The notes under the pieces were generated by a model that ran no database searches, was not told the origin of the DNA, and worked only from the letters and a program-made list of their open reading frames with translations. This document shows positions 1,739 to 60,726 of a stretch of DNA of 64,000 nucleotides, piece by piece (the stretch's first letter is position 1; each line of letters opens with the position of its first letter). The stretch spans positions 50,849-114,848 of the forward strand of contig CAZSQU010000002.1 of assembly GCA_964608985.1 (NCBI GenBank). The letters run 5' to 3'. This stretch comes from an uncultured Spirochaetales bacterium. GTDB lineage: Bacteria > Spirochaetota > GWE2-31-10 > CAYYKD01. The translations under genes were made by a program, and so were the position numbers.

Positions 1739-1938
1739 ATGGGTAGAGCAATAAAAATAGCTTTGTTTACTGTGTTTTTTTTGTTACTCTTTACTTTTAT
1801 TTCATTAAAATGCAACCATTACAATGCAGTTAATCAAGATAACACCGGTGATTATATTGGAGAATACAGATAAACCTTTTTTCGGGTAACAACTATTAGC
1901 CGGTTTTGTTAAATAGGTTTTGTGTTTGGAGGTCAATC

Positions 1939-30067: not shown

Positions 30068-30091
30068 AAAATCTCCTGAAAAAATCAAAAT

Positions 30092-30120
30092 ATTAAACAA
30101 TCATAAATTATTGTCGTCAA
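30092..30120 (-). promoter_or_regulatory. putative sigma70 promoter of the giant surface-protein gene (TTGACG - 17 nt - TTTAAT on the minus strand)
   Basis: Reverse complement of 30092-30120 gives TTGACGacaataatttatgattgTTTAAT, ~25 nt upstream of the ATG at 30067. Confidence 0.35.
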
Positions 30121-48506: not shown

Positions 48507-51500
48507 ATGAGTTTTAGGAATACAATTTTAAAAATAATTTCAGAGAAACCTGGTTTTAGAGCAGTTATTGATAGTTTTTCTAACAGTAATTCAATCAATA
48601 TCAGAGGATTGAACGGTAGTGCTGTTTCTGTTTTTACTGATGTATTAAGCGCGGAATCTGATAAGTCAATACTATTAATAACGGCAAGCGACAATGATGC
48701 AAAAGGATTTCATTCTGATCTCGTAAGTCTCGGAGTAGAATATGCTTTCTATTATCCTTCAATTAATATTATGCCATATAACCGATCTGTTGTAAATGAA
48801 GAGGTAGAATCTTCAAGAATTGATGTAATTAAAAGATTAGTCAACGGTGAAAAGATAATTGTTTGTACTTCATTACAGGCAAGTGTCGGGCAGATAACTC
48901 CAATTCATGCAATTGCACCATTTTATCTCGATATATCTGAAGGGATTAAAATTGATGTAGAAAAATTAAAGGGTGATCTTAACAGGGCAGGTTATAGAAG
49001 AACACAATCTGTTAATGACCCCGGTGAATTTTCTATGAGGGGCGGAATAATCGACATTTATTATTCTCCCCATAAAAGACCGGTTAGGATAGATTTATTT
49101 GATGATATAGTGGAAACAATTAAACATTTTGATCCCGATACACAAAAAAGCAGTGAATCAATAAAATCAATATTTATTCCGCCATACAAAGAAATTCTAT
49201 ATGGCGAAACTGAGATTAAACGGGCTTCGGTTTTGATAGATAAGATCGGCGGGAGTGTTGAAAACAGAACTGCGATTCTTGAAAAGATAAAAAATTTCAG
49301 CAGATTTGACGGAGAGTACTTCTTAATATCATTATTCTATGAAAAATATTCAATAACAGACTATTTCCTCGATCAAATAATTATTATTAATGATTCTGTT
49401 ATGTGCGGCAAGAGATACAAAACGATAATCAGCGAATATGAAGAAAACTATCATCTCCCTTTTAATCGTGATATTCCACGGTTTACAAAAGAAGATATAC
49501 TTTTTGACTATGATTTATTAAACGATAATGCAGCTTCTTTAATTAATGTAGAAAGCTTTAATTCAAGTGATGAAATTGTAATAGATTTCGGATTTAAAGG
49601 GATACCGGTTTATCTAGGCAATCTTGAGCTTTTCAGAAAGGATTTGGAAAAATATCTTGATGACGGATATAAAATAGTATTGTTCGGCGGGAATAAAGTA
49701 CAGCAAGAGAGACTTATATCACTTTTTTCGGGGTTTAATCCGATCGATGACCGCTTTGAATTTGTTAAGAATGGTTTTAGTGTTTATTCTACACCATTGT
49801 CTTACGGTTTTATCTCAGATGAAGACAAACTGTTTTTTCTAAATGATTATGAGCTTTTCGGTAAAAGAAAGATTAGTCAACATTATTACTCAAGAAGAAC
49901 CGAGCAGATCGATAGTTTTATTGATATTAATCCGGGCGATTATGTTGTACATATACATCATGGAATAGGGCTTTATCAAGGCATCGAAAGAATGAAGAGT
50001 CTCGGTGTCGAAAAAGATTATATCAGGGTTTTGTATGCTGATAACGAGAAACTTTTTATACCTGTTGAGCAGCTGAATTTTATTCAGAAATACATATCGA
50101 GCGGCATATCTGAACCGAAACTTGACAAACTCGGCGGTAAAGGATGGAACAGTACCAGAGTTAAGGTACAGAAATCTATTGAGGAACTTGCCCGCGAGTT
50201 AGTTAAGATATATGCTTATCGACTTAATCAAAAAGGCTTTGCTTTTGCACCGGACACACCTTGGCAGAGAGAGTTTGAGGCGGCTTTTCCTTATGACGAA
50301 ACAGAAGATCAGCTTTTATCCATTGAAGAGGTAAAAAGGGATATGGAGAGTGATCGCCCGATGGACCGGCTTATTTGCGGTGATGTAGGTTTTGGTAAGA
50401 CGGAGGTTGCCATTCGGGCGGCATTTAAGGCGGTGATGTCAGGTAAACAAGTCGCAATTCTTGTGCCGACTACTATCCTTGCCGAGCAGCATTATGAAAA
50501 TATGGAAGAACGGATGAAGAATTATCCGGTAAAAATTGAGATGCTTTCGAGGTTTAGAAGTGAACAGGAACAGACCCAAATTATTGGGAAGCTTGCACTG
50601 GGTGAGGTCGATATAATTGTTGGAACTCACAGACTTCTATCTAATGATATTAAGTATAAGAACCTTGGATTGTTGATTATTGATGAAGAGCATAAATTCG
50701 GTGTAAAACATAAAGAAAAAATAAAGAAATTCAGAATATCTGTTGATTCTTTATCTATGACGGCAACCCCCATTCCAAGAACCCTGCATATGTCACTTGC
50801 AAAGATTAGGGACATGTCTGTGATAAATACTCCTCCAAAAGATAGGCAACCTGTTGAGACCTTTGTCAGTGAATACAATGAAGAGATCATAATTGATGCT
50901 GTTGAACGAGAATTAAAAAGGGATGGGCAGGTTTTTTTCTTGTATAACAGGGTACAAACGATCTATACAATGAGGAATCATCTCCAGAAAATTCTACCAA
51001 AGGCAAGGATAGAGGTGGCTCATGGACAGATGGAGGAGAATGAGCTTGAGGATGTTATTCATAACTTTATTAATCATAAGTTTGATATACTTCTTACAAC
51101 AACTATTATTGAATCGGGGATAGATATCCCCAGGGCAAATACGATTATTATTGATAGGGCTGATAAGTTCGGATTAGCTTCTCTCTACCAGTTACGGGGG
51201 CGTGTTGGAAGATCAGATAAACAAGGTTATGCTTATCTGTTTTATAGTGAGGATATAGCATTAACTGAGGTTGCTATGAAAAGATTACGGGTAATCTCGG
51301 AGTACACCGATCTCGGCAGCGGGTTTAAGGTTGCTATGAAGGACCTTGAGATTCGAGGTGCCGGTAATCTTTTCGGACCGGAACAGAGCGGAAATATACT
51401 TGCTGTCGGTTTTCATTTATACTGTAAACTATTACAGCAGGCAGTAAATGAGATAGCTAAAGCTGAAGGGGAATCCGATATTATAGAGAGTAATGAGGTT

Positions 51501-51953
51501 TATATTGACATGAAATATAACGGTTTTATTCCCGATGATTATATTCCCGATCAGAAGACAAAAATAGAGTTCTATAAAAAGATCGCCGGAGTTATTCACA
51601 ATGATGAAATAGGTGAGATTAAAAGACTATTGGAAGATAGATACGGCAAAATACCGTCAGAGGTGTTGACTCTATTTTATCTTTCGGAGATTCGTGTTAT
51701 TTGTAAAAAGCTAAAAGTAACGGATGTTATTGAGAGGAATGGAGTTGTAGAGGTTAAATTTGGCGAAATAAAGCAGTTTGATGTTATAAAATTTATGAAT
51801 TTTATTAATAAACGGGCTAAATATGTCAGTATTAAACCGGACAAACCCGAATCTTTGTTCGTTAAAACCGGTGAAGGCGAAAATCTAAAAGATAAAGGTG
51901 AATTATTAACCGGTATGCTTCTTGAGTTTGACAAATCTATTTGTGAAAAATAA
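48507..51953 (+). CDS. mfd: transcription-repair coupling factor Mfd
   Basis: UvrB-homology N-region, RNAP-interacting domain, superfamily-2 translocase motifs (GDVGFGKTEVA, DEEH, LSMTATPIPRT, QLRGRVGRS), TRCF C-terminal domain. 1148 aa. Confidence 0.9.
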   Translation: MSFRNTILKIISEKPGFRAVIDSFSNSNSINIRGLNGSAVSVFTDVLSAESDKSILLITASDNDAKGFHSDLVSLGVEYAFYYPSINIMPYNRSVVNEEVESSRIDVIKRLVNGEKIIVCTSLQASVGQITPIHAIAPFYLDISEGIKIDVEKLKGDLNRAGYRRTQSVNDPGEFSMRGGIIDIYYSPHKRPVRIDLFDDIVETIKHFDPDTQKSSESIKSIFIPPYKEILYGETEIKRASVLIDKIGGSVENRTAILEKIKNFSRFDGEYFLISLFYEKYSITDYFLDQIIIINDSVMCGKRYKTIISEYEENYHLPFNRDIPRFTKEDILFDYDLLNDNAASLINVESFNSSDEIVIDFGFKGIPVYLGNLELFRKDLEKYLDDGYKIVLFGGNKVQQERLISLFSGFNPIDDRFEFVKNGFSVYSTPLSYGFISDEDKLFFLNDYELFGKRKISQHYYSRRTEQIDSFIDINPGDYVVHIHHGIGLYQGIERMKSLGVEKDYIRVLYADNEKLFIPVEQLNFIQKYISSGISEPKLDKLGGKGWNSTRVKVQKSIEELARELVKIYAYRLNQKGFAFAPDTPWQREFEAAFPYDETEDQLLSIEEVKRDMESDRPMDRLICGDVGFGKTEVAIRAAFKAVMSGKQVAILVPTTILAEQHYENMEERMKNYPVKIEMLSRFRSEQEQTQIIGKLALGEVDIIVGTHRLLSNDIKYKNLGLLIIDEEHKFGVKHKEKIKKFRISVDSLSMTATPIPRTLHMSLAKIRDMSVINTPPKDRQPVETFVSEYNEEIIIDAVERELKRDGQVFFLYNRVQTIYTMRNHLQKILPKARIEVAHGQMEENELEDVIHNFINHKFDILLTTTIIESGIDIPRANTIIIDRADKFGLASLYQLRGRVGRSDKQGYAYLFYSEDIALTEVAMKRLRVISEYTDLGSGFKVAMKDLEIRGAGNLFGPEQSGNILAVGFHLYCKLLQQAVNEIAKAEGESDIIESNEVYIDMKYNGFIPDDYIPDQKTKIEFYKKIAGVIHNDEIGEIKRLLEDRYGKIPSEVLTLFYLSEIRVICKKLKVTDVIERNGVVEVKFGEIKQFDVIKFMNFINKRAKYVSIKPDKPESLFVKTGEGENLKDKGELLTGMLLEFDKSICEK

Positions 51954-51997
51954 GTCTTCTTTAAAAATTTCTAATAATCAGTTTTTTAGAATTCATC

Positions 51998-52045
51998 TTG
52001 ACAATTGAGCATTTGTTCATTATAATGTATTGAGCATATGTTCAA
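51998..52045 (+). promoter_or_regulatory. sigma70 promoter (TTGACA - 17 nt - TATAAT) carrying two copies of a 16-bp near-palindromic operator TTGAGCAT(T/A)TGTTCA(A)
   Basis: Consensus -35 at 51998-52003 and -10 at 52021-52026. Operator copy 1 (52005-52019) fills the spacer. Copy 2 (52030-52045) sits at the predicted transcription start. The 16-mer TTGAGCATATGTTCAA is 14/16 self-complementary. Confidence 0.55.
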
Positions 52046-52070
52046 AATTGTATTTATTTAGGATTGAATT

Positions 52071-52523
52071 TTGTCTCGTAATAAAAAATGCAGAAGATTA
52101 TCTGAGATACCTATTGCAAAAGGGTATAGACCTTTTGGTGTGTCAATGTTTACGCTAGAGCCTGTAATTATTGTTCTTGAGGAATACGAGGCATTTAAAC
52201 TTGCAGATTATATCGGATTATCACACGAAGAGGCAGCAGTAAGAATGGATGTTTCAAGACCTACATTTACCCGAATCTATGAGAGTGTAAGAAAAAAACT
52301 TGCTATTGCCCTTGCTGAAGGAAAAAGTTTTATAATTGAGGGCGGAAATGTTGAGTTGGATTTTGACAGGTATAAGTGTAATGAGTGTGACAATATTTTT
52401 ATTATCGATAAGAACAGCAGTTCGAAAGAAGTTGTATGTTTAAAATGCGGTTCAGTAAATGTTATCAGTTTAAATGAATGTTTTACTGTAGGTTGTGCCG
52501 CTTGCTGCAGGTGTAAGGATTAA
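52071..52523 (+). CDS. DUF134/UPF0251-family predicted DNA-binding protein with C-terminal Cys-rich zinc-ribbon extension
   Basis: N-terminus MSRNKKCRRLS...G.RPFG...LEEYEAFKLADYIGLSHEEAAVRMDVSRPTFTRIYESVRKKLAIALAEGKSFIIEGG follows the DUF134 pattern (sigma-70 region-4-like HTH). C-terminal CNECD...CLKCGS...CFTVGCAACCRC cysteine cluster. TTG start. Confidence 0.6.
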   Translation: MSRNKKCRRLSEIPIAKGYRPFGVSMFTLEPVIIVLEEYEAFKLADYIGLSHEEAAVRMDVSRPTFTRIYESVRKKLAIALAEGKSFIIEGGNVELDFDRYKCNECDNIFIIDKNSSSKEVVCLKCGSVNVISLNECFTVGCAACCRCKD

Positions 52524-52555
52524 TTTAAAAAAAGATATTTAATGGAAAAACACAA

Positions 52556-53473
52556 ATGAAAACATATATTGATTGTATTCCTTGTTTCTATAGACAGATA
52601 ATTGATACAGCAAGGATCGCCGGTGCAGACGACAAATTAATTAAAAAAATAATTGATAAATCCGGAGTTTTTATCAAGCAAAATGGTTTGAACTTCTCAC
52701 CTCCTGAAATAATAGGTGAAATATATCAGATAATAAAAAATAAAACCGGTGATAATGATCCATATAATATTATTAAAGATCAGAGTAATAAATCCGCAAT
52801 GGCAGTATATGACTTTTGCAAGTCTAAGATTGAACTATCAAGTGATAGGTTATTATCAGCTGTTGAGATGGCTATTGCGGGGAATATTATTGACTTTGGT
52901 ATAAAAGGATCAATTGATATAGAAAAAGAGATTTTAAATATATTAAAAGAAGAAAGCAAGCTTATAAAGAATCATCGAACAGATTATTTTGCGTATGAAG
53001 AATTTAATAATAAAGTAACCGGTTCTAGTAGAATTATATACCTGGGGGATAATGCCGGCGAAATTGTTTTTGATAAGATGCTTATTGAAGAGATATTAAG
53101 GGTAAATCCGGCAGTAAATATCGTCTATATGGTAAGAGAAATTCCGATTATAAACGATGTTCTTATGAGTGATGCAAAATTCTGCGGGTTAGATACTTTA
53201 ACCGATATCGTATCATCCGGATCAAGAGTACCGGGAACAGTCTATAAAAAGTGCCCAAAATCAGTAAAAAAGTTATTTAAAAAATCTGATTTTATAATAA
53301 GCAAAGGTCAGGGGAATTTTGAATCATTTGTTTATGAACAAAAAGATGTTTTTTATCTTTTTATGGCAAAATGTTCAATAGTAGCAAAAGAAGTTGGATG
53401 CAATGTCGGTAATATAAATTTGTATTATAAAAAAAAAGGGGTGAAAAATGAAGATAGCAATACCTACAAGTGA
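52556..53473 (+). CDS. DUF89-family protein (damage-control phosphatase, ARMT1-like)
   Basis: Hallmark N-terminus MKTYIDCIPCFYRQ (MK...C.PC..RQ) and GDNAGEIVFD metal-binding segment typical of DUF89. Confidence 0.65.
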   Translation: MKTYIDCIPCFYRQIIDTARIAGADDKLIKKIIDKSGVFIKQNGLNFSPPEIIGEIYQIIKNKTGDNDPYNIIKDQSNKSAMAVYDFCKSKIELSSDRLLSAVEMAIAGNIIDFGIKGSIDIEKEILNILKEESKLIKNHRTDYFAYEEFNNKVTGSSRIIYLGDNAGEIVFDKMLIEEILRVNPAVNIVYMVREIPIINDVLMSDAKFCGLDTLTDIVSSGSRVPGTVYKKCPKSVKKLFKKSDFIISKGQGNFESFVYEQKDVFYLFMAKCSIVAKEVGCNVGNINLYYKKKGVKNEDSNTYK

Positions 53474-53783
53474 TAAGGTTAATATCAATGACCATTTTGG
53501 CCGTGCAGATTATTTTGCAATCTATGATGACAGCGGTGTTGAACCGGTTTATTACTATGATAATAGAGAAAATGCTAATTCTGCTCAAGGAGCAGGAATA
53601 CAAGCGGCGACCGGTGTAGTCAATGAGAAGGTAGAGGTTGTATTATCCCCCAGCTTGGGGCCAAAAGCAACAGATGTTTTAAAATCTGCCGGAGTTAAGT
53701 CTTATCTCATTGTTGAAAAAGGTATACCTTTAATAGAAGTACTCAAAAGTTACAAAGATGGCAAACTAAAATCGATCTATTGA
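53448..53783 (+). CDS. NifX/NifB/NafY-like dinitrogenase FeMo-cofactor-binding-domain protein (Nitro_FeMo-Co family)
   Basis: MKIAIPTSDKVNINDHFGRADYFAIYD is the canonical start of this ~110-aa domain family. GGGGTG RBS. Overlaps the DUF89 gene end by 26 nt. Confidence 0.65.
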   Translation: MKIAIPTSDKVNINDHFGRADYFAIYDDSGVEPVYYYDNRENANSAQGAGIQAATGVVNEKVEVVLSPSLGPKATDVLKSAGVKSYLIVEKGIPLIEVLKSYKDGKLKSIY

Positions 53784-53808
53784 TTGTCTTAGAATAAATG
53801 GAGTTAAT

Positions 53809-54612
53809 ATGCAAATTGTTACTCTCATAGAAAATATGGTTTATGATCAAGGGCTGACTGCCGAACACGGTTTGTCGCTATATTTAGAATCCGGCAATAA
53901 AAAAATTGTTTTTGATACCGGTCAGACCGGTAATTTTGTTAATAATGCAGTCAGACTCGGTGTAGATATAAGCACTGTTACTGACCTTGTAATTAGTCAT
54001 GGTCATTATGATCATACCGGCGGGATATTAAACTTTATTAAGAATAATAATCATGCAAAGATACATATTAAAAGACAGGCTTTCATAAAAAAGTATCGTA
54101 CTAATAAAACCGATTCAATCGGAATCCCGTTTGATCCGGATTTTATCAGTGAAAGAATTAATTTTATTGATAAAAAAACTGAGATATCGTCAGGCGTTTT
54201 TATAATGCCCGAAATTATTATATATGAACCGGAAGATCTGCATTATGACGGTATGTTTATTAAAAATGCTGATCAATTCATACCGGATAAGTTTGATGAT
54301 GAATTGTTTCTTGCAGTGGTTAATGAAGAAAAGTTAACAATTGTATCCGGTTGCTCACATAACGGAATAATTAATATCTGCGAAACTGCGGCAAATCAAT
54401 TAAATCTAAAGTTTAATACAATATTAGGCGGATTTCATCTAATGAATAGTAATGAAGCCCATATTCGTTTACTTTCAGAGTATTTCAAAAAAATCAATCC
54501 GGAGAAGATCGGGGTCTGCCATTGCACCGGAATAGATAAGTTTGCTATATTAAAGAATATTTTAGGTAAAAAGGTTTTTTATAACTATACAGGAAAAAAA
54601 ATAATAATTTAA
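53809..54612 (+). CDS. MBL-fold metallo-hydrolase
   Basis: VISHGHYDHTGG (HxHxDH zinc motif) and downstream His/Asp ligands (GCSHNG, FHLMN). Confidence 0.7.
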   Translation: MQIVTLIENMVYDQGLTAEHGLSLYLESGNKKIVFDTGQTGNFVNNAVRLGVDISTVTDLVISHGHYDHTGGILNFIKNNNHAKIHIKRQAFIKKYRTNKTDSIGIPFDPDFISERINFIDKKTEISSGVFIMPEIIIYEPEDLHYDGMFIKNADQFIPDKFDDELFLAVVNEEKLTIVSGCSHNGIINICETAANQLNLKFNTILGGFHLMNSNEAHIRLLSEYFKKINPEKIGVCHCTGIDKFAILKNILGKKVFYNYTGKKIII

Positions 54613-54625
54613 TAAAGGGGTATTT

Positions 54626-55846
54626 ATGCACAATCAAAATCAAGATGAAGAATTACAGAACATGATGAGGGAGCAAAATCTTAACCGGATAAAGAACAAG
54701 ATAGTTGTTATAAGCGGTAAGGGTGGGGTCGGTAAGAGTACTGTTAGTGTTAACCTTGCTTACGCATTGGCTCTTGAAGGAAATAGTGTCGGACTTATGG
54801 ATGTTGATATTCACGGCCCGTCTGTTGCCAAGATGACAGGTATTGAGGGCAAAAGGCTTGTTGCCGGTAATAATGGAAGAGCAATACCGATTGAGGCGGT
54901 TAATAACCTTCATGTTATATCAATTGCTTCTATGTTAGAACACCCCGATGACCCTGTAGTTTGGCGTGGACCGGCTAAGATGGGGGTCATCAAACAATTT
55001 CTTGAGGAGATTGAATGGCCGGAGTTAGACTACCTTATTGTTGATTGTCCTCCGGGTACAGGCGATGAGCCATTGAGCGTAATTCAGCTTATAGGGAATG
55101 TTACCGGAGCGGTTATTGTTTCAACTCCACAGGATGTTGCATTTCTTGATGCAAGAAAGTCGATTTCGTTTGCTAATATGCTTAAAGTTCCTGTTTTAGG
55201 TATAATTGAGAATATGGCCGGATTTACTTGTCCCCATTGTAAAGGAAAGGTAGATATTTTTAAATCAGGTGGGGCTGTTAAAGCGGCAAAGGACTTTAAT
55301 GTTGAGGTTCTTGGGGCTATACCGATTGAGACAGCTATCGTTGAGTCAGGCGATTCGGGTAAGCCATTTGTTTATTTCTTCAGTAAAACAGAAGCCGGTA
55401 AGGAATTCTTGTCAATAGTAGATAAAATTACAGAAAAAATTCAAACTCAAAATAAGGCGTCTTCTGAATCTAAAAAAAATAAAACCGAAAAAATAGCTAT
55501 TCCTGTTGATGGAGATATCTTGGCAGAACATTTCGGGCATGCGCCAAAGTTTGTAATATATGATATTGACGGTAAAAAAATATTATCAAGTAGTGAACAT
55601 ACACCTCCGCCCCATGAGCCGGGTGTGATACCAAAGTGGCTTGATAGTTTAAATGTAACAAAGATTATCACCGGCGGTATAGGTCAGGGAGCTGTAAACT
55701 TCTTTAATCAGTTCAAAATTGAGGTTTTTTCCGGAGCGCCTGTAATACAGCACAACGAATTGATTTTAAAATACCTGAATAATGAACTGTCAACCGGCGG
55801 GGCTAAGTGTGATCACTCGGGAGAACACAGCTGCGGAGGTCATTAA
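54626..55846 (+). CDS. Mrp/NBP35/ApbC-family Fe-S cluster carrier ATPase fused to a C-terminal NifX-like (Nitro_FeMo-Co) domain
   Basis: Deviant Walker A ISGKGGVGKST, CPHC cluster-binding motif (GFTCPHCKG), then KIAIPVDGDILAEHFGHAPKFVIYD repeating the NifX-like signature. Confidence 0.75.
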   Translation: MHNQNQDEELQNMMREQNLNRIKNKIVVISGKGGVGKSTVSVNLAYALALEGNSVGLMDVDIHGPSVAKMTGIEGKRLVAGNNGRAIPIEAVNNLHVISIASMLEHPDDPVVWRGPAKMGVIKQFLEEIEWPELDYLIVDCPPGTGDEPLSVIQLIGNVTGAVIVSTPQDVAFLDARKSISFANMLKVPVLGIIENMAGFTCPHCKGKVDIFKSGGAVKAAKDFNVEVLGAIPIETAIVESGDSGKPFVYFFSKTEAGKEFLSIVDKITEKIQTQNKASSESKKNKTEKIAIPVDGDILAEHFGHAPKFVIYDIDGKKILSSSEHTPPPHEPGVIPKWLDSLNVTKIITGGIGQGAVNFFNQFKIEVFSGAPVIQHNELILKYLNNELSTGGAKCDHSGEHSCGGH

Positions 55847-55870
55847 TAGTCCGGTATTCAAGTTTCAATC

Positions 55871-55907
55871 AAGCCGCAATAGTAAATTCTAATGCGGCTT
55901 TTTTTAT
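55871..55907 (+). terminator. rho-independent terminator after the Mrp/NBP35 gene
   Basis: AAGCCGCA-(13-nt loop)-TGCGGCTT followed by TTTTTTT. Confidence 0.6.
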
Positions 55908-56024
55908 TTTTTTTCTCTTATTTATCTTGATTATTATTTATAAATTATTATATTTGATTAGTAAAATATTATATAGTAGTCAATATTTTGTTATTAGATT
56001 GAAATAATTGAATCGGGGGTTATT

Positions 56025-58490
56025 ATGGGCAAATACCTAATTGTGGGTGGAGTAGCAGGTGGGGCAACAACAGCGGCTCGTCTTAGAAGGATTGATGAAA
56101 AATCGGAAATAATAATGTTTGAGCGCGGAGATTATATATCTTATGCGAATTGCGGGCTTCCATATTATGTTGGGGGGACAATAAAAGAAAGAGATTCTTT
56201 ATTTGTTATGACACCGGAGAAATTTTATGCCCGTCTTGCGGTTGATGTAAGGATTAAAAGTGAGGTAACGGCAATTGACAGAAAGAATAAAGAGGTTACA
56301 GTAAAAGATCTAAAAACCGGAAAAGAATACAAGGAGAGATATGACAAGCTTGTTTTATCCCCCGGTGCAGAACCCGTAAGACCCCCGATACCGGGTATAG
56401 AGAGTAATTTAATATTTACCATGAGAAGTGTGCCGGATACAGATGCGATTAAGAACTTTGTTGACACTAATAAACCCCAAAGAGCAGTTATAATTGGAGC
56501 TGGTTTCATTGGAATCGAAATGGCAGAGAACCTTCATCATAGAGGAATCAAGGTTACAATTATTGAAGCACTTGATCAGATGATGGGGGTTCTTGATTAT
56601 GAGATGGCTTCCGAGATACATCAACATCTAAAGATAAAAGGGGTTGAATTTTATCTCGGAGACGGCGTGAAGAATTTCAATCAACTGCCTAAAGGTCTTA
56701 CTGTTGTACTTAACAGCGGTAAAACAATTTCAAGCGATATGGTAATACTTTCAATTGGCGTTAGACCGGAAACTAAACTTGCAAAAGAAGCGGGTATAGA
56801 TTGTAACGAAAGGGGTTTTATCCATGTAGATAAGTATATGCAGACTAATGATCCGGATATTTATGCATTAGGTGATGCTGTCTGTTTCACAAGTCCGATT
56901 ACCGGTAAGATTGTTAACACTTTACTTGCGGGACCGGCAAATAAACAGGGGCGTATTCTTGCTGATAATATTGTTTTCGGCAATAAGAGGGAGTATAAAG
57001 GGGCAATAGCTACGGCTGTTGCGAAGGTATTTGATCTTACTGTTGCTTCAACCGGCATGCCCGAGAAAATTATTCAAAAAGAAAACATCCCGTATTTAAC
57101 AAATATAATACACGCCGGAAGTCATGCCGGTTACTATCCCGGTGCACTGCCAATGAGTTTAAAGCTTGTTTTCTCGCCGGTTGACGGAAGAATTTACGGT
57201 GCTCAAGCAGTTGGTTATGAAGGTGTAGATAAGCGGATTGATGTTATAGCCGCTATAATCGGAAAAAACGGAACTATTTATGATCTACAGGAGGTTGAAC
57301 ACTGTTATGCGCCGCCATTCTCCAGTGCAAAAGATCCGGTCAATCAGGCAGGGTTTGCCGCTGAGAATATTCTAAGGGGGCTTGTTAAGGTAATTACCTG
57401 GAAAGAGTTATTTGAGTCGGATAGGTCTAAACTGCTGTTGCTTGATGTAAGAACACCAGATGAAGTGGAGATAAACAGGGTAAATGGTGCTTTAACTATT
57501 CCGGTTGATGATATCCGTGCAAGGTTAAAAGAGATTCCAAAAGATAAAAAAATTGTTGTTTTTTGTGCAGTGGGGTTAAGAGGGTACTTTGCGTGTAGAA
57601 TTCTTATGCAGTCAGGTTATACTGATGTTTATAATCTTTCGGGTGGTTATAAGATATACGAGCTTGCAACAGGAAAACAGTCAAATGAGGATGTGTTTAC
57701 CCACGATGAATATGATATTGAAGGTGTTGTTTATGAAAACAGGGAGAAAATTGATATGAGTAAAACAGTTGAAGTAGATGCTTGCGGACTTCAATGTCCC
57801 GGTCCAATATTAAGATTGAAACAAGAAGTTGATAAGTTAAGGGTAGGCGAGATTCTTGAAATAAAAGCAAGTGATCCCGGGTTTATGAAAGATAGTCAAT
57901 CGTGGTGTAATGTGACAGGAAATAAACTCATTTCTATCAATAGTGATAAAGGTGTTATTACTGCTGTTATTCAAAAAGGTGAGTCTTTACCGTCTTGTAA
58001 GGTGTCAGATAACGGCGGCAGTGAAAACAAAACAATAATTGTTTTTAGTAATGATTTTGATAAAGTGCTTGCGGCTTTTGTAATAGCTAACGGTGCGGCG
58101 AGTATGGGTAAGAAAGTTACGATGTTTTTTACATTCTGGGGGCTTGTAGTTCTGAAGAAAAAAAAGAGCGGACGGGTAAAAAAAGATTTTATGGGCAAGA
58201 TGTTCGGTATGATGCTGCCGAAATATTCAAAGAAATTAACATTGTCAAAGATGAATATGGGCGGTATGGGGACAGTGATGATGAGGGGTAGAATGAAGGC
58301 AAAGCAGGTCGATTCACTTGAGACTATGATTAATCAAGCTTTGGAAAATGGTGTTAAATTTATAGCTTGCCAGATGTCTATGGATGTTATGGGGGTTAAA
58401 AAAGAGGAGTTGATGGATCAAGTTGAGATAGGCGGTGTGGCATCTTATCTTGAAGAAGCGGATAAGTCGAGTCATAATTTGTTTATATAG
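56025..58490 (+). CDS. multidomain CoA-disulfide reductase / persulfide reductase-like flavoprotein fused to rhodanese, TusA-like and DsrE/DsrF-like domains
   Basis: FAD/NAD(P) pyridine-nucleotide disulfide oxidoreductase with single active Cys (YANCGLPYY) and NAD site VIIGAGFIGIE. Rhodanese Cys loop FCAVGLRG. TusA CGLQCPGP. DsrE-like KTIIVFSNDFDKVLAAFVIANGAASMGKKVTMFFTFWGL. Confidence 0.75.
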   Translation: MGKYLIVGGVAGGATTAARLRRIDEKSEIIMFERGDYISYANCGLPYYVGGTIKERDSLFVMTPEKFYARLAVDVRIKSEVTAIDRKNKEVTVKDLKTGKEYKERYDKLVLSPGAEPVRPPIPGIESNLIFTMRSVPDTDAIKNFVDTNKPQRAVIIGAGFIGIEMAENLHHRGIKVTIIEALDQMMGVLDYEMASEIHQHLKIKGVEFYLGDGVKNFNQLPKGLTVVLNSGKTISSDMVILSIGVRPETKLAKEAGIDCNERGFIHVDKYMQTNDPDIYALGDAVCFTSPITGKIVNTLLAGPANKQGRILADNIVFGNKREYKGAIATAVAKVFDLTVASTGMPEKIIQKENIPYLTNIIHAGSHAGYYPGALPMSLKLVFSPVDGRIYGAQAVGYEGVDKRIDVIAAIIGKNGTIYDLQEVEHCYAPPFSSAKDPVNQAGFAAENILRGLVKVITWKELFESDRSKLLLLDVRTPDEVEINRVNGALTIPVDDIRARLKEIPKDKKIVVFCAVGLRGYFACRILMQSGYTDVYNLSGGYKIYELATGKQSNEDVFTHDEYDIEGVVYENREKIDMSKTVEVDACGLQCPGPILRLKQEVDKLRVGEILEIKASDPGFMKDSQSWCNVTGNKLISINSDKGVITAVIQKGESLPSCKVSDNGGSENKTIIVFSNDFDKVLAAFVIANGAASMGKKVTMFFTFWGLVVLKKKKSGRVKKDFMGKMFGMMLPKYSKKLTLSKMNMGGMGTVMMRGRMKAKQVDSLETMINQALENGVKFIACQMSMDVMGVKKEELMDQVEIGGVASYLEEADKSSHNLFI

Positions 58491-58494
58491 TTAA

Positions 58495-58523
58495 AATGCT
58501 GTCTTACAATGACAGCTTTTTTT
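58495..58523 (+). terminator. rho-independent terminator after the CoADR-fusion gene
   Basis: GCTGTC-ttacaat-GACAGC followed by TTTTTTT. Confidence 0.65.
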
Positions 58524-58639
58524 AGTTATTATTTATATTAATATTTTGATGAAAACATGCAATAAAATATTGACAAATTTTTATAATTTGTTAGGTTAAG
58601 TATTTGTGGATTTAAAATAAAAAAAATGGATTACTAAAT

Positions 58640-59602
58640 ATGAAAAAAACTATTGTTGTCATTTTGTGTTTTCTTCTTACCGGATGTTTAAGTCTTCAAT
58701 ATACAAGACATGTGTTTAATCATAAAACAATAATTCATATTGAACCATTCTCAGAGCTTTATATTCATACAGAAGATGAGACAGAGAAATTGTTTTCAAC
58801 ATACATTAATAATCGGATTAAGGAGCAATTACCTGCCTTCTTTCCTGATCGATTGATAAAACTGTCAGATTCTCCTGAAAATTGCACACAAAAGATTTTT
58901 ATTACATTAAATAGCTTTAACTGGTATGAGGAGACTGAACAATCAGAAACTAATATAACAAGTAAAGATAAAAATAATAATGATGTTATACAAACAATTA
59001 CAACAGAAAGAGATGTTTTATATATGTTTTATACTTATAAAATTGACTTTTCAGATGAAAATAATAATCAATTATCATTAGTTAATTCCGGATCCGTAAA
59101 TGTTGATCTTAGAAGAAGGCAGTGGGTTAAGTATGATAAATATGCTGATTTTGGAGATTTTGTATCAAATCTCTTAAGCAATGCTATAAATAATGTTGTA
59201 TATGCGGCTTTTGGTACATATAATGTAAATTTAAGTGATCAGCGGGATATTACAGGAGTTAAAGTACCATTATACAATGATATATTTAAAAATGTTTTAG
59301 GTAGTATTGCGGCGGTGTTGCCGGAGTATAAAGGGATTTTTTTGAACTTGTTTACCATAGATTATACAATCGATAATTATATAAGACAGAATATAAATGC
59401 TTCAAACAGAACAGATATTATCGATCATCTTCTGGATTTAGTTGAAATGAGGCCTGTTGATCAAAAGATAAAAATTTATTTTAATATCTCAAAACTTTAT
59501 AAAATAGATGGCAACGACGAGATGTCGGACAAATATTACAATATTGCAATGTCTTTTAATCCGGATAGAGCCATATTGAACGAGATAATATTCATTTTTT
59601 AA
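58640..59602 (+). CDS. hypothetical lipoprotein
   Basis: Signal peptide with lipobox LLTGC (MKKTIVVILCFLLTGCLS). N/D/Y-rich mature protein without known motifs. Confidence 0.45.
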   Translation: MKKTIVVILCFLLTGCLSLQYTRHVFNHKTIIHIEPFSELYIHTEDETEKLFSTYINNRIKEQLPAFFPDRLIKLSDSPENCTQKIFITLNSFNWYEETEQSETNITSKDKNNNDVIQTITTERDVLYMFYTYKIDFSDENNNQLSLVNSGSVNVDLRRRQWVKYDKYADFGDFVSNLLSNAINNVVYAAFGTYNVNLSDQRDITGVKVPLYNDIFKNVLGSIAAVLPEYKGIFLNLFTIDYTIDNYIRQNINASNRTDIIDHLLDLVEMRPVDQKIKIYFNISKLYKIDGNDEMSDKYYNIAMSFNPDRAILNEIIFIF

Positions 59603-59817
59603 AAAAGTAATTATAGTTATAAGAAGAAACAATATTTCTAAAAAAATGTGGTTTTTTTAAATTATATTAATATTTTAATTTTTCAGTAAACAGCAAAGTT
59701 AATATTCATATTCTTTTATTAAGAAATATTATTAATAAATAAATGAAATAACTTTGACTTTATTTTATTTTTTTGATAAAAATATAAATGTTTTAAAATT
59801 AAATTAAGGATTTTTAT

Positions 59818-60726
59818 ATGGCATATTTATTTGATCCTAACTTTGAACCTGGTTCTAAAGTTAAAGTAATAGCGGAGATCGGGTGCAATCATAAAGGCGA
59901 CATGTCAATAGCAAAAGAGATGATTAAAATAGCCAAGATATTTTGTGGTGCCAATTATGTCAAGTTTCAAAAAAGAACCAATAAAGAACTTATGACACCT
60001 GAAGAATATAATGCTCCGCATCCTAACCCTATTAATTCGTACGGTGATACTTACGGGGCTCACAGAGAATATTTGGAATTTACTCACGATCAACACAAAG
60101 AATTAATGGATTACTGCAAAGAAACAGGAATTGGTTACTCCACTTCAGTATGGGATTTGACTTCTGCAAAAGAAATAGTAAAACTAAACCCTGATTTTAT
60201 AAAAGTCCCGTCGGCATGCAATCTTCATAAACCGATGCTGACCGAATTACTTGAAAATTTCGGCGGGGATGTTCATATATCATTCGGCATGACAACACAT
60301 AAAGAAGAAGAAGAGATTGTTTCATTTTATACAAAAAAAAATGCAGGTAAAAGGCTTGTAATATACTCTTGTACATCCGGTTATCCTGTTCCTTTTGAGG
60401 ATATTTCTTTGCGAGAAATCGAAAGATTGGTAAAAAAATTTGGTAAAGATGTTAAGGAAATTGGTTTTTCTGGTCATCATAACGGAATAGCGGCTGATAT
60501 TGCTGCCTTAGCGCTAGGTGCGACTTGGTTTGAAAGACATTATACTTTAAACAGAACTTGGAAAGGAACAGACCATGCAGCATCTCTTGAACCGGACGGT
60601 CTTAGAAAGCTAGTTAGAGACCTACATAATGTAGAAAAAGCTCTTACCTATAAGTCTGAAGAGATTCTTGATATTGAAAAAGTACAAAGAAACAAACTAA
60701 AAAGAATGCCCGGAAAACATTTTTAA
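59818..60726 (+). CDS. NeuB-family nonulosonic acid (Neu5Ac/KDN-type) synthase, short form lacking the C-terminal SAF/antifreeze-like domain
   Basis: VIAEIGCNHKGDM...A...I..A....A..VKFQ (NeuB TIM-barrel signature), ~300 aa. Start codon of the next gene overlaps its stop. Confidence 0.65.
   Translation: MAYLFDPNFEPGSKVKVIAEIGCNHKGDMSIAKEMIKIAKIFCGANYVKFQKRTNKELMTPEEYNAPHPNPINSYGDTYGAHREYLEFTHDQHKELMDYCKETGIGYSTSVWDLTSAKEIVKLNPDFIKVPSACNLHKPMLTELLENFGGDVHISFGMTTHKEEEEIVSFYTKKNAGKRLVIYSCTSGYPVPFEDISLREIERLVKKFGKDVKEIGFSGHHNGIAADIAALALGATWFERHYTLNRTWKGTDHAASLEPDGLRKLVRDLHNVEKALTYKSEEILDIEKVQRNKLKRMPGKHF

What the first reader, a model, noticed from the sequence alone, without database searches (positions are those of the whole stretch)
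52071..58490. Candidate sulfur/Fe-S cofactor trafficking module: DUF134-Zn-ribbon, DUF89, NifX-like, MBL hydrolase, Mrp/NBP35-NifX fusion, then CoADR-rhodanese-TusA-DsrE fusion
The six genes are co-directional. The first five have overlaps or 13-32-nt gaps. Two carry the Nitro_FeMo-Co (NifX/NafY-like) cofactor-carrier domain, once free and once fused to an Mrp/NBP35 Fe-S carrier ATPase with a CPHC motif. After a terminator and a 178-nt gap comes a four-domain persulfide/CoA-disulfide reductase with rhodanese, TusA and DsrE sulfur-relay domains. DUF134 and DUF89 are widespread but functionally unresolved. DUF89 enzymes are metal-dependent phosphatases, and DUF134 is a putative regulator, here with an added Cys-rich C-terminus. 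The combination suggests a regulated system that mobilises persulfide sulfur and hands Fe-S or other metal clusters to client enzymes in an anaerobe that has no nitrogenase in sight.
Basis: partly seen in the sequence, partly recalled or inferred. Interest (0 to 1): 0.55.

Follow-up and report, generated by a model that had tools for sequence, protein, structure and literature searches.

The report
Orange-protein gene cluster with own repressor
Five of the six genes form a variant of the "orange protein" operon that anaerobes use to handle iron-sulfur or metal-sulfide clusters. The operon appears to be switched by its own first gene, an uncharacterised DNA-binding protein whose conserved binding site we found, and the sixth gene is a separately transcribed sulfur-handling enzyme.

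Summary
All six ORFs, their spacing, every domain call and the terminator are real.

**Genes 1-5 (52071-55846).** These are a variant of a known system, the anaerobe-specific ORange Protein (ORP) cluster.
- Gene 5 passes NCBIfam's equivalog model for MrpORP (Orp9).
- Gene 3 is an ORP/MTH1175-type NifX-like carrier.
- DUF134, the MBL hydrolase and DUF89 recur in ORP-type clusters in many phyla.
- Unlike Desulfovibrio, the window has no Orp3/Orp4 ferredoxin-ATPases and no sigma-54 promoter.

**Candidate operator.** A perfect sigma-70 promoter carries two copies of a 14-bp palindrome, TGAnCAnnTGnTCA. The same palindrome lies upstream of DUF134 genes in 24 of 44 unrelated loci, at about 185 times the background density, usually as a pair 26 bp apart. 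DUF134 models as a sigma-region-4 helix-turn-helix plus a zinc ribbon, so it is the likely autorepressor. This was not found in the literature searched.

**Gene 6.** This is a common, usually solitary CoA-persulfide-reductase-type fusion. It has its own promoter-like sequence and no palindrome, and a terminator precedes it. A functional link is possible, because distantly related CoADR-rhodanese genes sit inside ORP operons elsewhere. It is not shown here.

Verdict: new variant of a known kind, of moderate interest.

The parts
51998..52026 (+). Sigma-70 promoter: -35 TTGACA (51998-52003), 17-nt spacer, -10 TATAAT (52021-52026)
   Evidence: 12 of 12 consensus matches, the only perfect site in 51500-59900. 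Sequence read. The same promoter layout is present in the orthologous locus L001.
52006..52019 (.). Operator site 1, TGAGCATTTGTTCA, a 14-bp imperfect palindrome lying in the promoter spacer
   Evidence: Exact copy is conserved in L001 at the same place. It fits the family motif TGAnCAnnTGnTCA, which is about 185-fold enriched upstream of DUF134 genes.
52031..52044 (.). Operator site 2, TGAGCATATGTTCA, just downstream of the -10 hexamer and 25 bp from site 1
   Evidence: Searches show two copies with start-to-start spacing of 25 bp. In L001 the second copy is inverted but both half-sites are kept. Paired sites 26 bp apart occur in 14 of 19 loci that have pairs. The only other site in the 64-kb window within one mismatch of the 10 specified positions, at 16931, matches no more than chance.
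52071..52523 (+). Gene 1: DUF134/UPF0251 protein (150 aa, TTG start). It has an HTH, a Cys4 zinc ribbon (C103, C106, C123, C126) and a C-terminal tail CX4CX2CCXC. It is the candidate autorepressor.
   Evidence: Pfam PF02001, 72 bits. The four ribbon Cys are invariant in 26 homologues. AlphaFold model has pLDDT 82. Helices 36-83 superpose on ECF sigma region 4 at rmsd 0.6-0.9 A over 46-48 residues, prob 1.0.
52556..53473 (+). Gene 2: DUF89/ARMT1-like metal-dependent phosphatase, subfamily I (305 aa)
   Evidence: Pfam PF01937, 228 bits. Best PDB matches are AF1104 (2FFJ) and PH1575 (2G8L), E about 1e-34. Motifs DNAGE (165) and KGQGN (250) are present. DUF89 occurs in 11 of 53 ORP-type loci against 0 of 63 other loci.
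53448..53783 (+). Gene 3: single-domain NifX-like (Di-Nase, IPR003731) carrier of ORP/MTH1175 type (111 aa, no Cys). It overlaps gene 2 by 26 nt.
   Evidence: Pfam PF02579, 58 bits. PDB hits are MTH1175 1EO1 (2e-9), TM1290 1RDU and D. gigas orange protein 2WFB (2e-7). It is 81% identical to the L001 orthologue.
53809..54612 (+). Gene 4: MBL-fold metallo-hydrolase (267 aa), HGHYDH at residues 64-69, substrate unknown
   Evidence: Pfam PF00753. Best PDB matches are the uncharacterised 2P4Z (3e-56) and TM1679 3H3E. The motif is shown. This MBL type occurs in 19 of 53 ORP-type loci against 2 of 63 others.
54626..55846 (+). Gene 5: MrpORP (Orp9-type) Fe-S carrier ATPase (406 aa). It combines an Mrp/NBP35 P-loop domain (GKGGVGKS at 31, CPHC at 202-205) with a C-terminal Di-Nase domain (HFGH, TPPPHEPG, CDH).
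   Evidence: NCBIfam NF041136 MrpORP equivalog, 484 bits against a cut-off of 450. Alignment with 23 homologues. Motifs. Biochemistry of the family is in PMC6345978.
55871..55915 (+). Intrinsic terminator ending the five-gene operon: stem AAGCCGCA/UGCGGCUU followed by a U-run
   Evidence: -15.4 kcal/mol, z = -5.4.
56025..58490 (+). Gene 6: separately transcribed CoADR-rhodanese-TusA-DsrE2 fusion (821 aa). It is a CoA-persulfide/polysulfide-reductase-type flavoenzyme with a three-step persulfide relay (C43, C514, C591, C782).
   Evidence: Pfam and NCBIfam. PDB matches are BaCoADR-RHD 3ICR (1.6e-178), Npsr 3NTA, EfCoAPR 8A56 and DsrE 3PNX. All 119 other full-length homologues listed are 61-65% identical; where a source names them it is mostly 'CoA-disulfide reductase'. 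A promoter-like site lies at 55999-56026.
58498..58516 (+). Terminator-like hairpin after gene 6
   Evidence: GCTGTC...GACAGC followed by a T-run.

Best explanation
**The operon.** Genes 1-5 (52071-55846) form one sigma-70-driven operon of the orange-protein (ORP) type.
- MrpORP is an ATP-dependent dimeric carrier. It holds a bridging [4Fe-4S] cluster on its CPHC motif and delivers it to client proteins. Its fused Di-Nase domain holds a further Fe-S or metal-sulfide species.
- The free, Cys-less NifX-like protein carries a non-covalently bound anionic metal-sulfide cluster, as the orange protein, IssA and NifX do.
- The MBL hydrolase and the DUF89 phosphatase are recurrent accessory enzymes of this system. 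Their substrates are unknown.

**Regulation.** The first gene product, DUF134, has a sigma-region-4-type HTH, a Cys4 zinc ribbon and a further Cys-rich tail. It binds as a repressor to two 14-bp palindromes (TGAnCAnnTGnTCA) that overlap the -35/-10 spacer and the transcription start, so the operon is autoregulated. The Cys-rich C-terminus is the likely sensor of Fe-S, metal or sulfide status.

**Gene 6.** This is an independent transcription unit for a CoA-persulfide/polysulfide reductase fused to a rhodanese-TusA-DsrE2 persulfide relay. It may feed or buffer the sulfur used by the operon, but that coupling is only suggested.

**Shown:** gene structure, family memberships, operon signals, conservation of the cluster and conservation of the palindrome pair.
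**Inferred:** DUF134 is the protein that binds the palindromes, its action is repression, the identity of the signal, the cargo of the carriers, and any link to gene 6.
For: **Family assignments**
- MrpORP equivalog passed: 484 against 450 bits.
- Walker A, CPHC, HFGH, TPPPHEPG and CDH are conserved in an alignment of 24 sequences.
- Published biochemistry for the family is in PMC6345978. P0017, 57% identical to the window protein, comes from Spirochaetes bacterium GWF1_31_7, and the paper's list of P-loop+Di-Nase proteins includes an entry from that organism.
- The NifX-like protein matches the orange protein 2WFB and MTH1175.

**One operon**
- Gaps are at most 32 nt or overlaps.
- A single perfect promoter lies upstream and a strong terminator downstream.

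**Cluster conservation**
- DUF134-X-NifX-(DUF1847)-MBL-MrpORP in L001/L002.
- DUF134-MBL-MrpORP..NifX.
- DUF134-MBL-DUF5320-Orp3-Orp4-NifX-MrpORP.
- Cloacimonas and Bacteroidales versions.
- Among 52 ORP-type loci of at least 6 kb: DUF134 in 29, Orp3/4 in 41, MBL in 18, DUF89 in 10.

**Operator**
- Two exact copies lie in the window promoter. The only other window site within one mismatch of the 10 specified positions matches no more than chance.
- Position and half-sites are conserved in L001 even though one copy is flipped.
- 39 sites fall in 5.1 kb upstream of DUF134 genes against 82 in 1.99 Mb elsewhere, about 185-fold.
- Spacing is 26 bp in 14 of 19 pairs.
- Where DUF134 is not the first gene, the site lies at the operon head: L058 before DUF89 and L095 before NifX.

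**DUF134 as a DNA binder**
- AlphaFold model with pLDDT 82.
- HTH superposes on sigma region 4, including the DNA-bound SigE r4 structure 2H27.
- Pfam gives weak Sigma70_r4_2 and HTH hits.

**Gene 6 is separate**
- Terminator, own promoter-like site and no palindrome.
- Orthologues are solitary or paired with MarR.
Against: - No experiment shows that DUF134 binds these palindromes. Another regulator could do so.
- 20 of 44 DUF134 upstream regions lack a site within one mismatch of the 10 specified positions.
- At least one operon with a perfect site has no DUF134 gene on the contig (L095).
- The window lacks Orp3/Orp4, the only demonstrated physiological clients of MrpORP, so the clients here are unknown.
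- The spirochaete clade lacks both Cys of the CxHFGHC motif proposed to ligate the Di-Nase cluster.
- The published proposal for the D. vulgaris ORP complex is a role in cell division, not cluster trafficking.
- The roles of MBL and DUF89 are unexplained.
- The neighbourhood statistics use loci that are not taxon-matched, and the family labels come from HMMs I built myself.
Confidence: 0.68

Rival explanations
1. One reading: all six genes are one functional system. The CoADR-rhodanese-TusA-DsrE enzyme mobilises persulfide sulfur, which the Mrp/NifX proteins then assemble into Fe-S or metal-sulfide clusters and deliver.
For: - CoADR-family genes occur in 8 of 53 ORP-type loci against 1 of 63 other loci (Fisher p = 0.011).
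- A 565-aa CoADR-rhodanese is the last gene of a NifX-DiNase-Orp3-Orp4 operon that carries the same palindrome (L095).
- The same 565-aa type is embedded between ORP genes in L006 and L091.
- L091 also carries FeoAB, ZIP, a class-V aminotransferase-like gene and a CGGC-domain gene.
- All four relay cysteines of the fusion are intact.
Against: - In the window, gene 6 follows a -15.4 kcal/mol terminator and a 178-nt gap, and it lacks the palindrome.
- None of the four close relatives of the window's ORP genes has it nearby.
- Its own 63-65% identical orthologues are solitary or paired with MarR.
- The ORP-embedded CoADR-rhodanese proteins are a different subfamily, only 35-39% identical and without TusA or DsrE.
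- The enrichment test is not taxon-matched.
Confidence: 0.3
2. The palindrome pair is the operator of some other regulator, for example a global Fe, S or redox regulator. DUF134 would then have a different role, such as an accessory DNA-binding or zinc-binding protein of the ORP machinery.
For: - L095 has a perfect site but no DUF134 gene on a 15.7-kb contig.
- Only 24 of 44 DUF134 upstream regions have a site within one mismatch of the 10 specified positions.
- The window encodes a DtxR-type repressor 4.6 kb upstream.
Against: - The sites sit directly upstream of the DUF134 gene itself in most cases, with fixed geometry, across several phyla. That is the usual signature of autoregulation.
- DUF134 has a bona fide HTH fold.
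- DtxR and Fur boxes have different consensus sequences (own knowledge, not tested here).
Confidence: 0.2
3. The operon serves cell division or positioning, as was proposed for the D. vulgaris ORP complex with its MinD/ParA-like ATPases, rather than cofactor trafficking.
For: - The ORP complex was described as putatively involved in cell division, and MrpORP localises to a cell pole.
- The sigma-54 regulome table lists the function of the DVU2106 regulon as 'cell division'.
Against: - The window lacks the MinD-like Orp3/Orp4 proteins.
- The gene neighbours in relatives are for metal and sulfur handling (Feo, ZIP, ferritin, FUR, CGGC, radical SAM), not division genes.
Confidence: 0.08
4. The genes are unrelated neighbours that merely happen to be co-directional.
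For: DUF89 and MBL are generic hydrolase families. The flanking genes (mfd, a lipoprotein, neuB) are unrelated.
Against: - Tight or overlapping spacing, a single promoter and a single terminator.
- The same families recur together in dozens of loci from different phyla.
Confidence: 0.03

Closest known systems
ORange Protein (ORP) gene cluster of Desulfovibrio vulgaris Hildenborough (DVU2103-2105, DVU2107-2109; Fievet 2011; Pardoux 2019, PMC6345978)
   Same: - It has an MrpORP/Orp9 orthologue-type protein that passes the NCBIfam equivalog.
- It has a single-domain Di-Nase (Orp5/Orp8-like) protein.
- It is restricted to anaerobes.
- The genes are clustered in one locus.
   Different: - No Orp3/Orp4 ferredoxin-type MinD-like ATPases in the 64-kb window.
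- One Di-Nase gene instead of two.
- A sigma-70 promoter with a palindrome pair replaces the sigma-54 promoter and the DVU2106 enhancer-binding protein.
- MBL and DUF89 genes are added.
- I recall that DVU2107 is itself a DUF134/COG1342 protein, but I could not verify this because the paper is not held.
MrpORP (Orp9, DVU2109 / Dde_3202), NCBIfam NF041136
   Same: - Two-domain architecture.
- Deviant Walker A.
- CXXC motif.
- TPPPHxPG and CDH motifs.
- Score above the curated cut-off.
   Different: - No N-terminal Cys cluster.
- Both Cys of the CxHFGHC motif are replaced (LAEHFGHAP).
- An extra C-terminal tail, CDHSGEHSCGGH, is shared by the closest Spirochaetota-like relatives.
IssA / NifX / NafY / MTH1175 family of IPR003731 carriers (Vaccaro 2017, PMC5524996)
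   Same: A small alpha/beta Di-Nase domain that binds anionic Fe-S or metal-sulfide species without Cys ligands.
   Different: The window protein has no cationic Gly-rich C-terminal tail of the IssA type. There is no nitrogenase context. Its cargo is unknown.
CoA persulfide reductase / CoADR-RHD / Npsr (E. faecalis CoAPR 8A56, B. anthracis 3ICR, Shewanella loihica 3NTA; PMC9405070), compared from memory with S. aureus CstA (unchecked recollection: a multidomain sulfurtransferase with rhodanese, TusA-like and DsrE/TusD-like domains)
   Same: - The CoADR domain has the redox Cys (C43).
- The rhodanese domain has the catalytic Cys (C514).
- E = 1e-152 to 1e-178 to the solved enzymes.
   Different: - TusA (CPGP) and DsrE2-type domains are fused in one 821-aa chain.
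- No CstR-type regulator is adjacent.
- The fusion itself is common: all 119 other full-length homologues listed are 61-65% identical.
DUF89 subfamily I damage-control phosphatases (PH1575 2G8L, AF1104 2FFJ; Huang 2016 as summarised in PMC9062747)
   Same: Full-length homology and conserved DNxGE and KGxxN motifs.
   Different: The score is far below NCBIfam's equivalog cut-offs: 159 against 440. Here and in at least 11 other loci it is embedded in ORP-type clusters. None of the papers read here mentions that context.

Membership tests
MrpORP (NCBIfam NF041136; Pardoux 2019) | Whole-protein score above the curated equivalog cut-off | tested here: met
   484 bits against a cut-off of 450, covering profile positions 1-365 of 365.
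MrpORP (NCBIfam NF041136; Pardoux 2019) | Mrp/NBP35 P-loop domain with deviant Walker A GKGGhGK[ST] and a CXXC motif | tested here: met
   GKGGVGKS at residue 31 and CPHC at 202-205. Both Cys are invariant in 24 sequences.
MrpORP (NCBIfam NF041136; Pardoux 2019) | C-terminal Di-Nase (PF02579/IPR003731) domain with TPPPHxPGxxP and CDH motifs | tested here: met
   PF02579, 57 bits, residues 296-372. TPPPHEPGVIP and C395-D-H are present.
MrpORP (NCBIfam NF041136; Pardoux 2019) | Cysteines of the CxHFGHCE motif, proposed as ligands of the Di-Nase [3Fe-4S] cluster | tested here: not met
   The sequence is LAEHFGHAPK. HFGH is kept but both Cys are absent, as in the nearest relatives; a C-terminal His/Cys tail is present instead.
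MrpORP (NCBIfam NF041136; Pardoux 2019) | Binding of Fe-S clusters and transfer to apo-proteins | not testable with these tools
   This needs anaerobic purification, UV-vis/EPR and transfer assays.
ORP gene cluster (D. vulgaris type) | Orp3/Orp4: MinD-like ATPases with an inserted 2x[4Fe-4S] ferredoxin domain | tested here: not met
   tblastn with the L001 homologue found only a weak P-loop match inside the Mrp gene, and nothing else in the 64 kb. These proteins are present in 41 of 52 ORP-type loci elsewhere. A copy elsewhere in the genome cannot be excluded.
ORP gene cluster (D. vulgaris type) | Single-domain Di-Nase proteins (Orp5/Orp8) encoded next to MrpORP | tested here: met
   Gene 3 (111 aa) matches D. 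gigas ORP 2WFB at E = 2e-7 and MTH1175 at E = 2e-9.
ORP gene cluster (D. vulgaris type) | Sigma-54 promoter and a cognate enhancer-binding protein (DVU2106) | tested here: not met
   No TGGCAC-N5-TTGC-like site lies near 51900-52070. No sigma-54 activator is adjacent. A perfect sigma-70 promoter is present instead.
ORP gene cluster (D. vulgaris type) | Physical complex of the Orp proteins, and a Mo-Cu-S cluster on the orange protein | not testable with these tools
   This needs co-purification and metal analysis.
DUF134 / UPF0251 (PF02001) | Pfam domain above the gathering threshold, with a DNA-binding HTH core | tested here: met
   72 bits against 27. The modelled helices 36-83 match sigma region 4 (rmsd 0.6-0.9 A, prob 1.0). 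The NCBIfam equivalog PRK04217 is not reached: 67 against 115.
DUF89 subfamily I metal-dependent phosphatase | ARMT1-like domain with metal-binding DNxGE and KGxxN motifs, and closest structures PH1575/AF1104 | tested here: met
   228 bits. DNAGE at 165 and KGQGN at 250. 2FFJ and 2G8L match at E about 1e-34.
DUF89 subfamily I metal-dependent phosphatase | NCBIfam 'damage-control phosphatase' equivalog cut-off | tested here: not met
   159 against 440 bits, and 144 against 500 bits. It is a family member but not the named equivalog.
CoADR-RHD / CoAPR / Npsr | CoADR-type flavoprotein with a single redox Cys near FAD, plus a C-terminal rhodanese with a catalytic Cys | tested here: met
   SYANC (C43) and CAVGLR (C514). 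3ICR matches at E = 1.6e-178 over residues 3-546, and 8A56 at E = 9e-152. The stand-alone CoADR equivalog cut-offs are narrowly missed: TIGR03385 498 against 579, and PRK13512 389 against 394.
CoADR-RHD / CoAPR / Npsr | NAD(P)H-dependent reduction of CoA persulfide or polysulfide | not testable with these tools
   An enzyme assay is required.
TusA / DsrE2 sulfur relay | TusA CPxP cysteine and the conserved DsrE2-type Cys | tested here: met
   CPGP at 591 and ACQ at 781 (C782). PF01206 scores 69 bits and PF13686 scores 204 bits. 3PNX matches at E = 4e-32.

The most novel reading that the evidence does not exclude
DUF134/UPF0251, a widespread protein family with no described function in the literature searched, is the dedicated metal-, sulfide- or Fe-S-sensing autorepressor of ORP-type operons across bacterial phyla. 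It acts through a conserved pair of 14-bp palindromes (TGAnCAnnTGnTCA, 26 bp apart). The ORP system, with its recurrent DUF89 phosphatase, MBL hydrolase and (in some lineages) CoADR-rhodanese partners, is a self-contained pathway in anaerobes that turns sulfane sulfur or sulfide plus metal into stored or delivered metal-sulfide clusters.
Probability: 0.35. Interest if true: 0.7.

Novelty: new variant of a known kind. Interest (0 to 1): 0.5.

Why it matters
Fe-S and metal-sulfide cofactor handling in strict anaerobes is poorly understood. The ORP complex has been known since 2011 without a settled function.

This locus shows three things:
- A minimal form of the system exists without the Orp3/Orp4 clients.
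- DUF89 and an MBL hydrolase are recurrent members of the system.
- The clusters share a conserved operator in front of the DUF134 gene.

That gives two uncharacterised but widespread families (DUF134 and prokaryotic DUF89) a concrete, testable context: a defined DNA site for gel-shift or footprinting assays, and a defined set of partner proteins. It also sharpens the question of whether persulfide reductases supply sulfur to these systems.

Tried and rejected
The organism is therefore only inferred to be an uncultured Spirochaetota-like anaerobe, from the named nearest homologues.
- **Fievet 2011 (PMC3133258) is not held**. My recollection that DVU2107 is a DUF134 protein remains unverified. 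The supplements of Pardoux 2019 hold only the figure legend.
- **The genome-contig scan used general Mrp patterns**, so most of its 80 loci were ordinary ApbC/Mrp genes. I used them as an imperfect control. My automatic 'MrpORP' label also caught generic Mrp proteins with N-terminal extensions and was not used for counting.
- **No solved structure matches DUF134 by sequence**. The whole-chain fold matches (MCM N-terminal domain, HypA) have E > 0.01 and I set them aside. Only the local HTH and ribbon matches are used.
- **No Rfam family** reaches significance in 51800-59800, so a riboswitch explanation for the 178-nt gap was dropped. The inverted repeats in that gap are AT-rich and low in complexity.
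- **No sigma-54 promoter** was found.
- **No paper in the library contains the palindrome sequences, and none of those listed or read mentions UPF0251 or COG1342**.
- **I tried to test whether the palindrome is tied to the presence of DUF134 rather than to ORP operons in general.** The result was inconclusive because many contigs are truncated.

Full report
**1. Observation**

The six ORFs are at the stated coordinates and all lie on the + strand:

| Gene | Coordinates | Length |
|---|---|---|
| 1 | 52071-52523 | 150 aa, TTG start with AGGA 8 nt upstream |
| 2 | 52556-53473 | 305 aa |
| 3 | 53448-53783 | 111 aa |
| 4 | 53809-54612 | 267 aa |
| 5 | 54626-55846 | 406 aa |
| 6 | 56025-58490 | 821 aa |

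- The spacings are +32, -26, +25, +13 and +178 nt.
- A 12-of-12 sigma-70 promoter lies at 51998-52026.
- A hairpin at 55871-55900 followed by a U-run folds at -15.4 kcal/mol (z = -5.4; 0 of 200 shuffles fold as well) between genes 5 and 6.
- A second terminator-like hairpin follows gene 6 at 58498-58516.
- The window has about 33% G+C. It encodes anaerobic ribonucleotide reductase, several radical-SAM enzymes and a B12-dependent aminomutase, and no nitrogenase was found among the ORFs scanned.
- The nearest named homologues come from Spirochaetota metagenome-assembled genomes.

**2. What genes 1-5 are**

- **Gene 5.** It scores 484 bits against NCBIfam NF041136, 'iron-sulfur cluster carrier protein MrpORP' (cut-off 450).
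  - MrpORP (Orp9, DVU2109) is the two-domain Mrp/NBP35-plus-Di-Nase protein of the ORange Protein complex of Desulfovibrio.
  - Its CXXC motif binds a bridging [4Fe-4S] cluster that is transferred to aconitase and to Orp3/Orp4. Its Di-Nase domain holds a [3Fe-4S] cluster (PMC6345978).
  - The window protein has GKGGVGKS, CPHC (202-205), HFGH, TPPPHEPG and CDH.
  - P0017, a homologue 57% identical to the window protein, comes from Spirochaetes bacterium GWF1_31_7, an organism represented in the paper's list of this architecture.
- **Gene 3.** It matches MTH1175, TM1290 and the D. gigas orange protein 2WFB. It has no cysteine. That fits the family's habit of holding anionic metal-sulfide species non-covalently (PMC5524996).
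- **Gene 2.** It is a subfamily-I DUF89 phosphatase. AF1104 and PH1575 match at E about 1e-34, and the DNAGE and KGQGN motifs are present.
- **Gene 4.** It is an MBL hydrolase with HGHYDH, closest to the uncharacterised 2P4Z and TM1679.
- **Gene 1.** It is DUF134 with a Cys4 ribbon (C103, C106, C123, C126, invariant in 26 homologues) and a further CX4CX2CCXC tail. This architecture is common in the family and not special to this locus.

**3. Conservation of the cluster**

Context in the closest relatives of the window's MrpORP, and around DUF134 homologues from other phyla:

| Relative | Gene order |
|---|---|
| MrpORP 88% identical (L001/L002) | DUF134 - Orp3/4-like - NifX - DUF1847 - MBL - MrpORP |
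| MrpORP 73% identical | FUR .. DUF134 - MBL - MrpORP .. NifX |
| MrpORP 57% identical (Spirochaetes GWF1_31_7) | DUF134 - MBL - DUF5320 - Orp3 - Orp4 - NifX - MrpORP |
| Cloacimonas (via DUF134) | DUF134 - NifX - Orp3 - Orp4 - NifX - DUF5320 - Mrp |
| Bacteroidales (via DUF134) | DUF134 - DUF5320 - Mrp |

I built HMMs from these genes and mapped them onto 80 genome loci and 80 metagenome loci. The metagenome loci were fetched with the Di-Nase motifs. Results among loci of at least 6 kb:

- Among 52 ORP-type loci: Orp3/4 in 41, DUF134 in 29, MBL in 18, DUF5320 in 18, DUF89 in 10 and a CoADR-family gene in 7.
- After moving L091 to the ORP group, against 63 other loci (mostly ordinary Mrp): DUF89 11/53 against 0/63 (p = 1e-4), MBL 19/53 against 2/63 (p = 4e-6), CoADR family 8/53 against 1/63 (p = 0.011).
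- The control loci are not taxon-matched, so these p-values are indicative only.

The window has no Orp3/4 or DUF1847 homologue. DUF89 occupies the position that Orp3/4-like holds in the 88% relative.

**4. A conserved operator**

- The window promoter contains TGAGCATTTGTTCA (52006-52019, in the spacer) and TGAGCATATGTTCA (52031-52044, over the expected start).
- In L001 both copies are present at the same positions. The second is inverted but keeps both half-sites, while the flanking bases differ.
- I scanned the upstream regions of all DUF134 genes in the fetched loci for TGAnCAnnTGnTCA, allowing one mismatch in the 10 specified positions.
  - 39 sites fall in 5.1 kb, and 24 of 44 loci have at least one.
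  - Elsewhere there are 82 sites in 1.99 Mb, so the density ratio is about 185.
- The sites come in pairs 26 bp apart in 14 of 19 cases (25 bp in the window).
- Perfect sites also sit at operon heads when DUF134 is not the first gene: L058 before DUF89, L095 before NifX, and L111 and L143 before DUF5320.
- Within the 64-kb window, the only other site within one mismatch of the 10 specified positions (16931) matches no more than chance.
- The AlphaFold model of DUF134 (pLDDT 82) has a three-helix core that superposes on ECF sigma region 4, including the DNA-bound SigE r4, at 0.6-0.9 A over 46-48 residues. The ribbon resembles S27e.
- Sites overlapping both the spacer and the start point indicate repression. 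The identity of the binding protein and the signal are inferred, not shown.
- No paper in the searchable library contains these sequences, and none of those listed or read mentions UPF0251 or COG1342.

**5. Gene 6**

- Residues 1-549 match BaCoADR-RHD (1.6e-178), Npsr and E. faecalis CoA persulfide reductase. The C-terminus matches DsrE 3PNX.
- The redox Cys (C43), rhodanese Cys (C514), TusA Cys (C591) and DsrE2 Cys (C782) are all present.
- In CoAPR, the equivalents of C43 and C514 (C42 and C508) are both needed to reduce CoASSH to CoA and H2S (PMC9405070).
- The four-domain fusion is common. All 119 other full-length homologues listed are 61-65% identical, and where a source names them it is mostly 'CoA-disulfide reductase'.
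- In two Spirochaetota genomes the orthologue is solitary or follows a MarR gene.
- In the window it is set apart by the terminator, and it has a promoter-like site (55999-56026) and no palindrome.
- I therefore treat it as a separate unit.

There is still a recurrent, looser association between ORP clusters and CoADR-family genes:
- A 565-aa CoADR-rhodanese, 35-39% identical to gene 6, closes the NifX-DiNase-Orp3-Orp4 operon of L095.
- The same type lies between Orp4 and MBL in L006.
- In L091, the contig of the 63%-identical MrpORP, it lies between FeoB and ZIP. That locus reads DUF89 - permease halves - FeoA - FeoB - CoADR-Rhd - ZIP - class-V aminotransferase-like - CGGC - MBL - MrpORP.

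These contexts argue that ORP systems deal with metal and sulfur supply.

**6. Comparison, novelty and score**

- The locus works like, and by its key protein belongs to, the ORP/MrpORP system.
- It fails two features of the Desulfovibrio cluster: Orp3/4 and sigma-54 control.
- It fails one proposed ligand motif of MrpORP: the cysteines of CxHFGHC.
- It adds DUF89 and MBL.
- I rate it a new variant of a known kind.
- What is new, within the literature available to me, is the conserved palindrome pair that points to DUF134 as the cluster's autoregulator, and the statistical tie of prokaryotic DUF89 and an MBL type to ORP clusters.
- Interest is 0.5. The cluster itself is ordinary for a specialist in anaerobe Fe-S biology, but the operator makes the function of a long-uncharacterised family directly testable.

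Noticed in passing
window 46784-47479 (-) and 47495-48463 (-): A DtxR/MntR-type iron-dependent repressor (Fe_dep_repress plus Fe_dep_repr_C) lies 4.6 kb upstream of the operon, next to a 322-aa ORF with no Pfam family. mfd separates them from the operon.
   Followed up: no
window 55807-55846 (C-terminus of gene 5); alignment A1: The closest Spirochaetota-like MrpORP proteins lack both Cys of CxHFGHC and the N-terminal Cys cluster. They share a His/Cys-rich tail (CDHSGEHSCGGH) that the other clades aligned mostly lack; one Gastranaerophilales sequence (P0093) carries a similar tail. This may be an alternative ligand set for the Di-Nase cluster.
   Followed up: partly
L001/L002 7286-8197 and 8581-9171, compared with window 52556-53473: In the 88%-identical relative, the slot after DUF134 holds an Orp3/4-like Fer4-ATPase, and a DUF1847 gene sits between NifX and MBL. 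The window has DUF89 in that slot and no DUF1847. This looks like a recent swap of accessory genes inside an otherwise conserved operon.
   Followed up: partly
L091 1-10351: A long co-directional cluster: DUF89, two ArsP-like permease halves, FeoA, FeoB, CoADR-rhodanese, ZIP, a class-V aminotransferase-like gene, a CGGC-domain gene, MBL and MrpORP. It appears to combine metal uptake, sulfur mobilisation and an Fe-S carrier.
   Followed up: partly
L095 5256-9484: A perfect palindrome, TGAACAAATGTTCA, lies 43 nt before a NifX-DiNase-Orp3-Orp4-CoADR-rhodanese operon. No DUF134 gene is present on the 15.7-kb contig.
   Followed up: partly
L084 5607-5867, L086 9884-10165, L087 7617-7868 and many metagenome loci: DUF5320 is a frequent small member of ORP-type clusters (18 of 52 loci). 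In L006 it is fused to a 2x[4Fe-4S] ferredoxin domain. It is absent from the window.
   Followed up: no
window 52574-52585 (DUF89 residues 7-10): The DUF89 protein starts with a CIPC motif that aligns with CPSC of AF1104 (2FFJ). This may be a conserved CxxC of subfamily I, of unknown role.
   Followed up: no
window 58640-59602 (+): A 320-aa ORF with a lipoprotein-like N-terminus (…LLTGC) lies directly after gene 6. It matches no Pfam or NCBIfam family.
   Followed up: no
window 23942-30100 (-): A very large ORF of 2052 aa was not analysed. Also not identified are ORFs without Pfam hits at 1906-3594, 37643-38797 and 42761-44605.
   Followed up: no
window 59818-63040 (+): A NeuB-family sialic or legionaminic acid synthase gene (59818-60726) is followed by two further co-directional ORFs (60726-63040) that were not annotated; possibly a surface-sugar cluster. 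It is unrelated to the finding.
   Followed up: no
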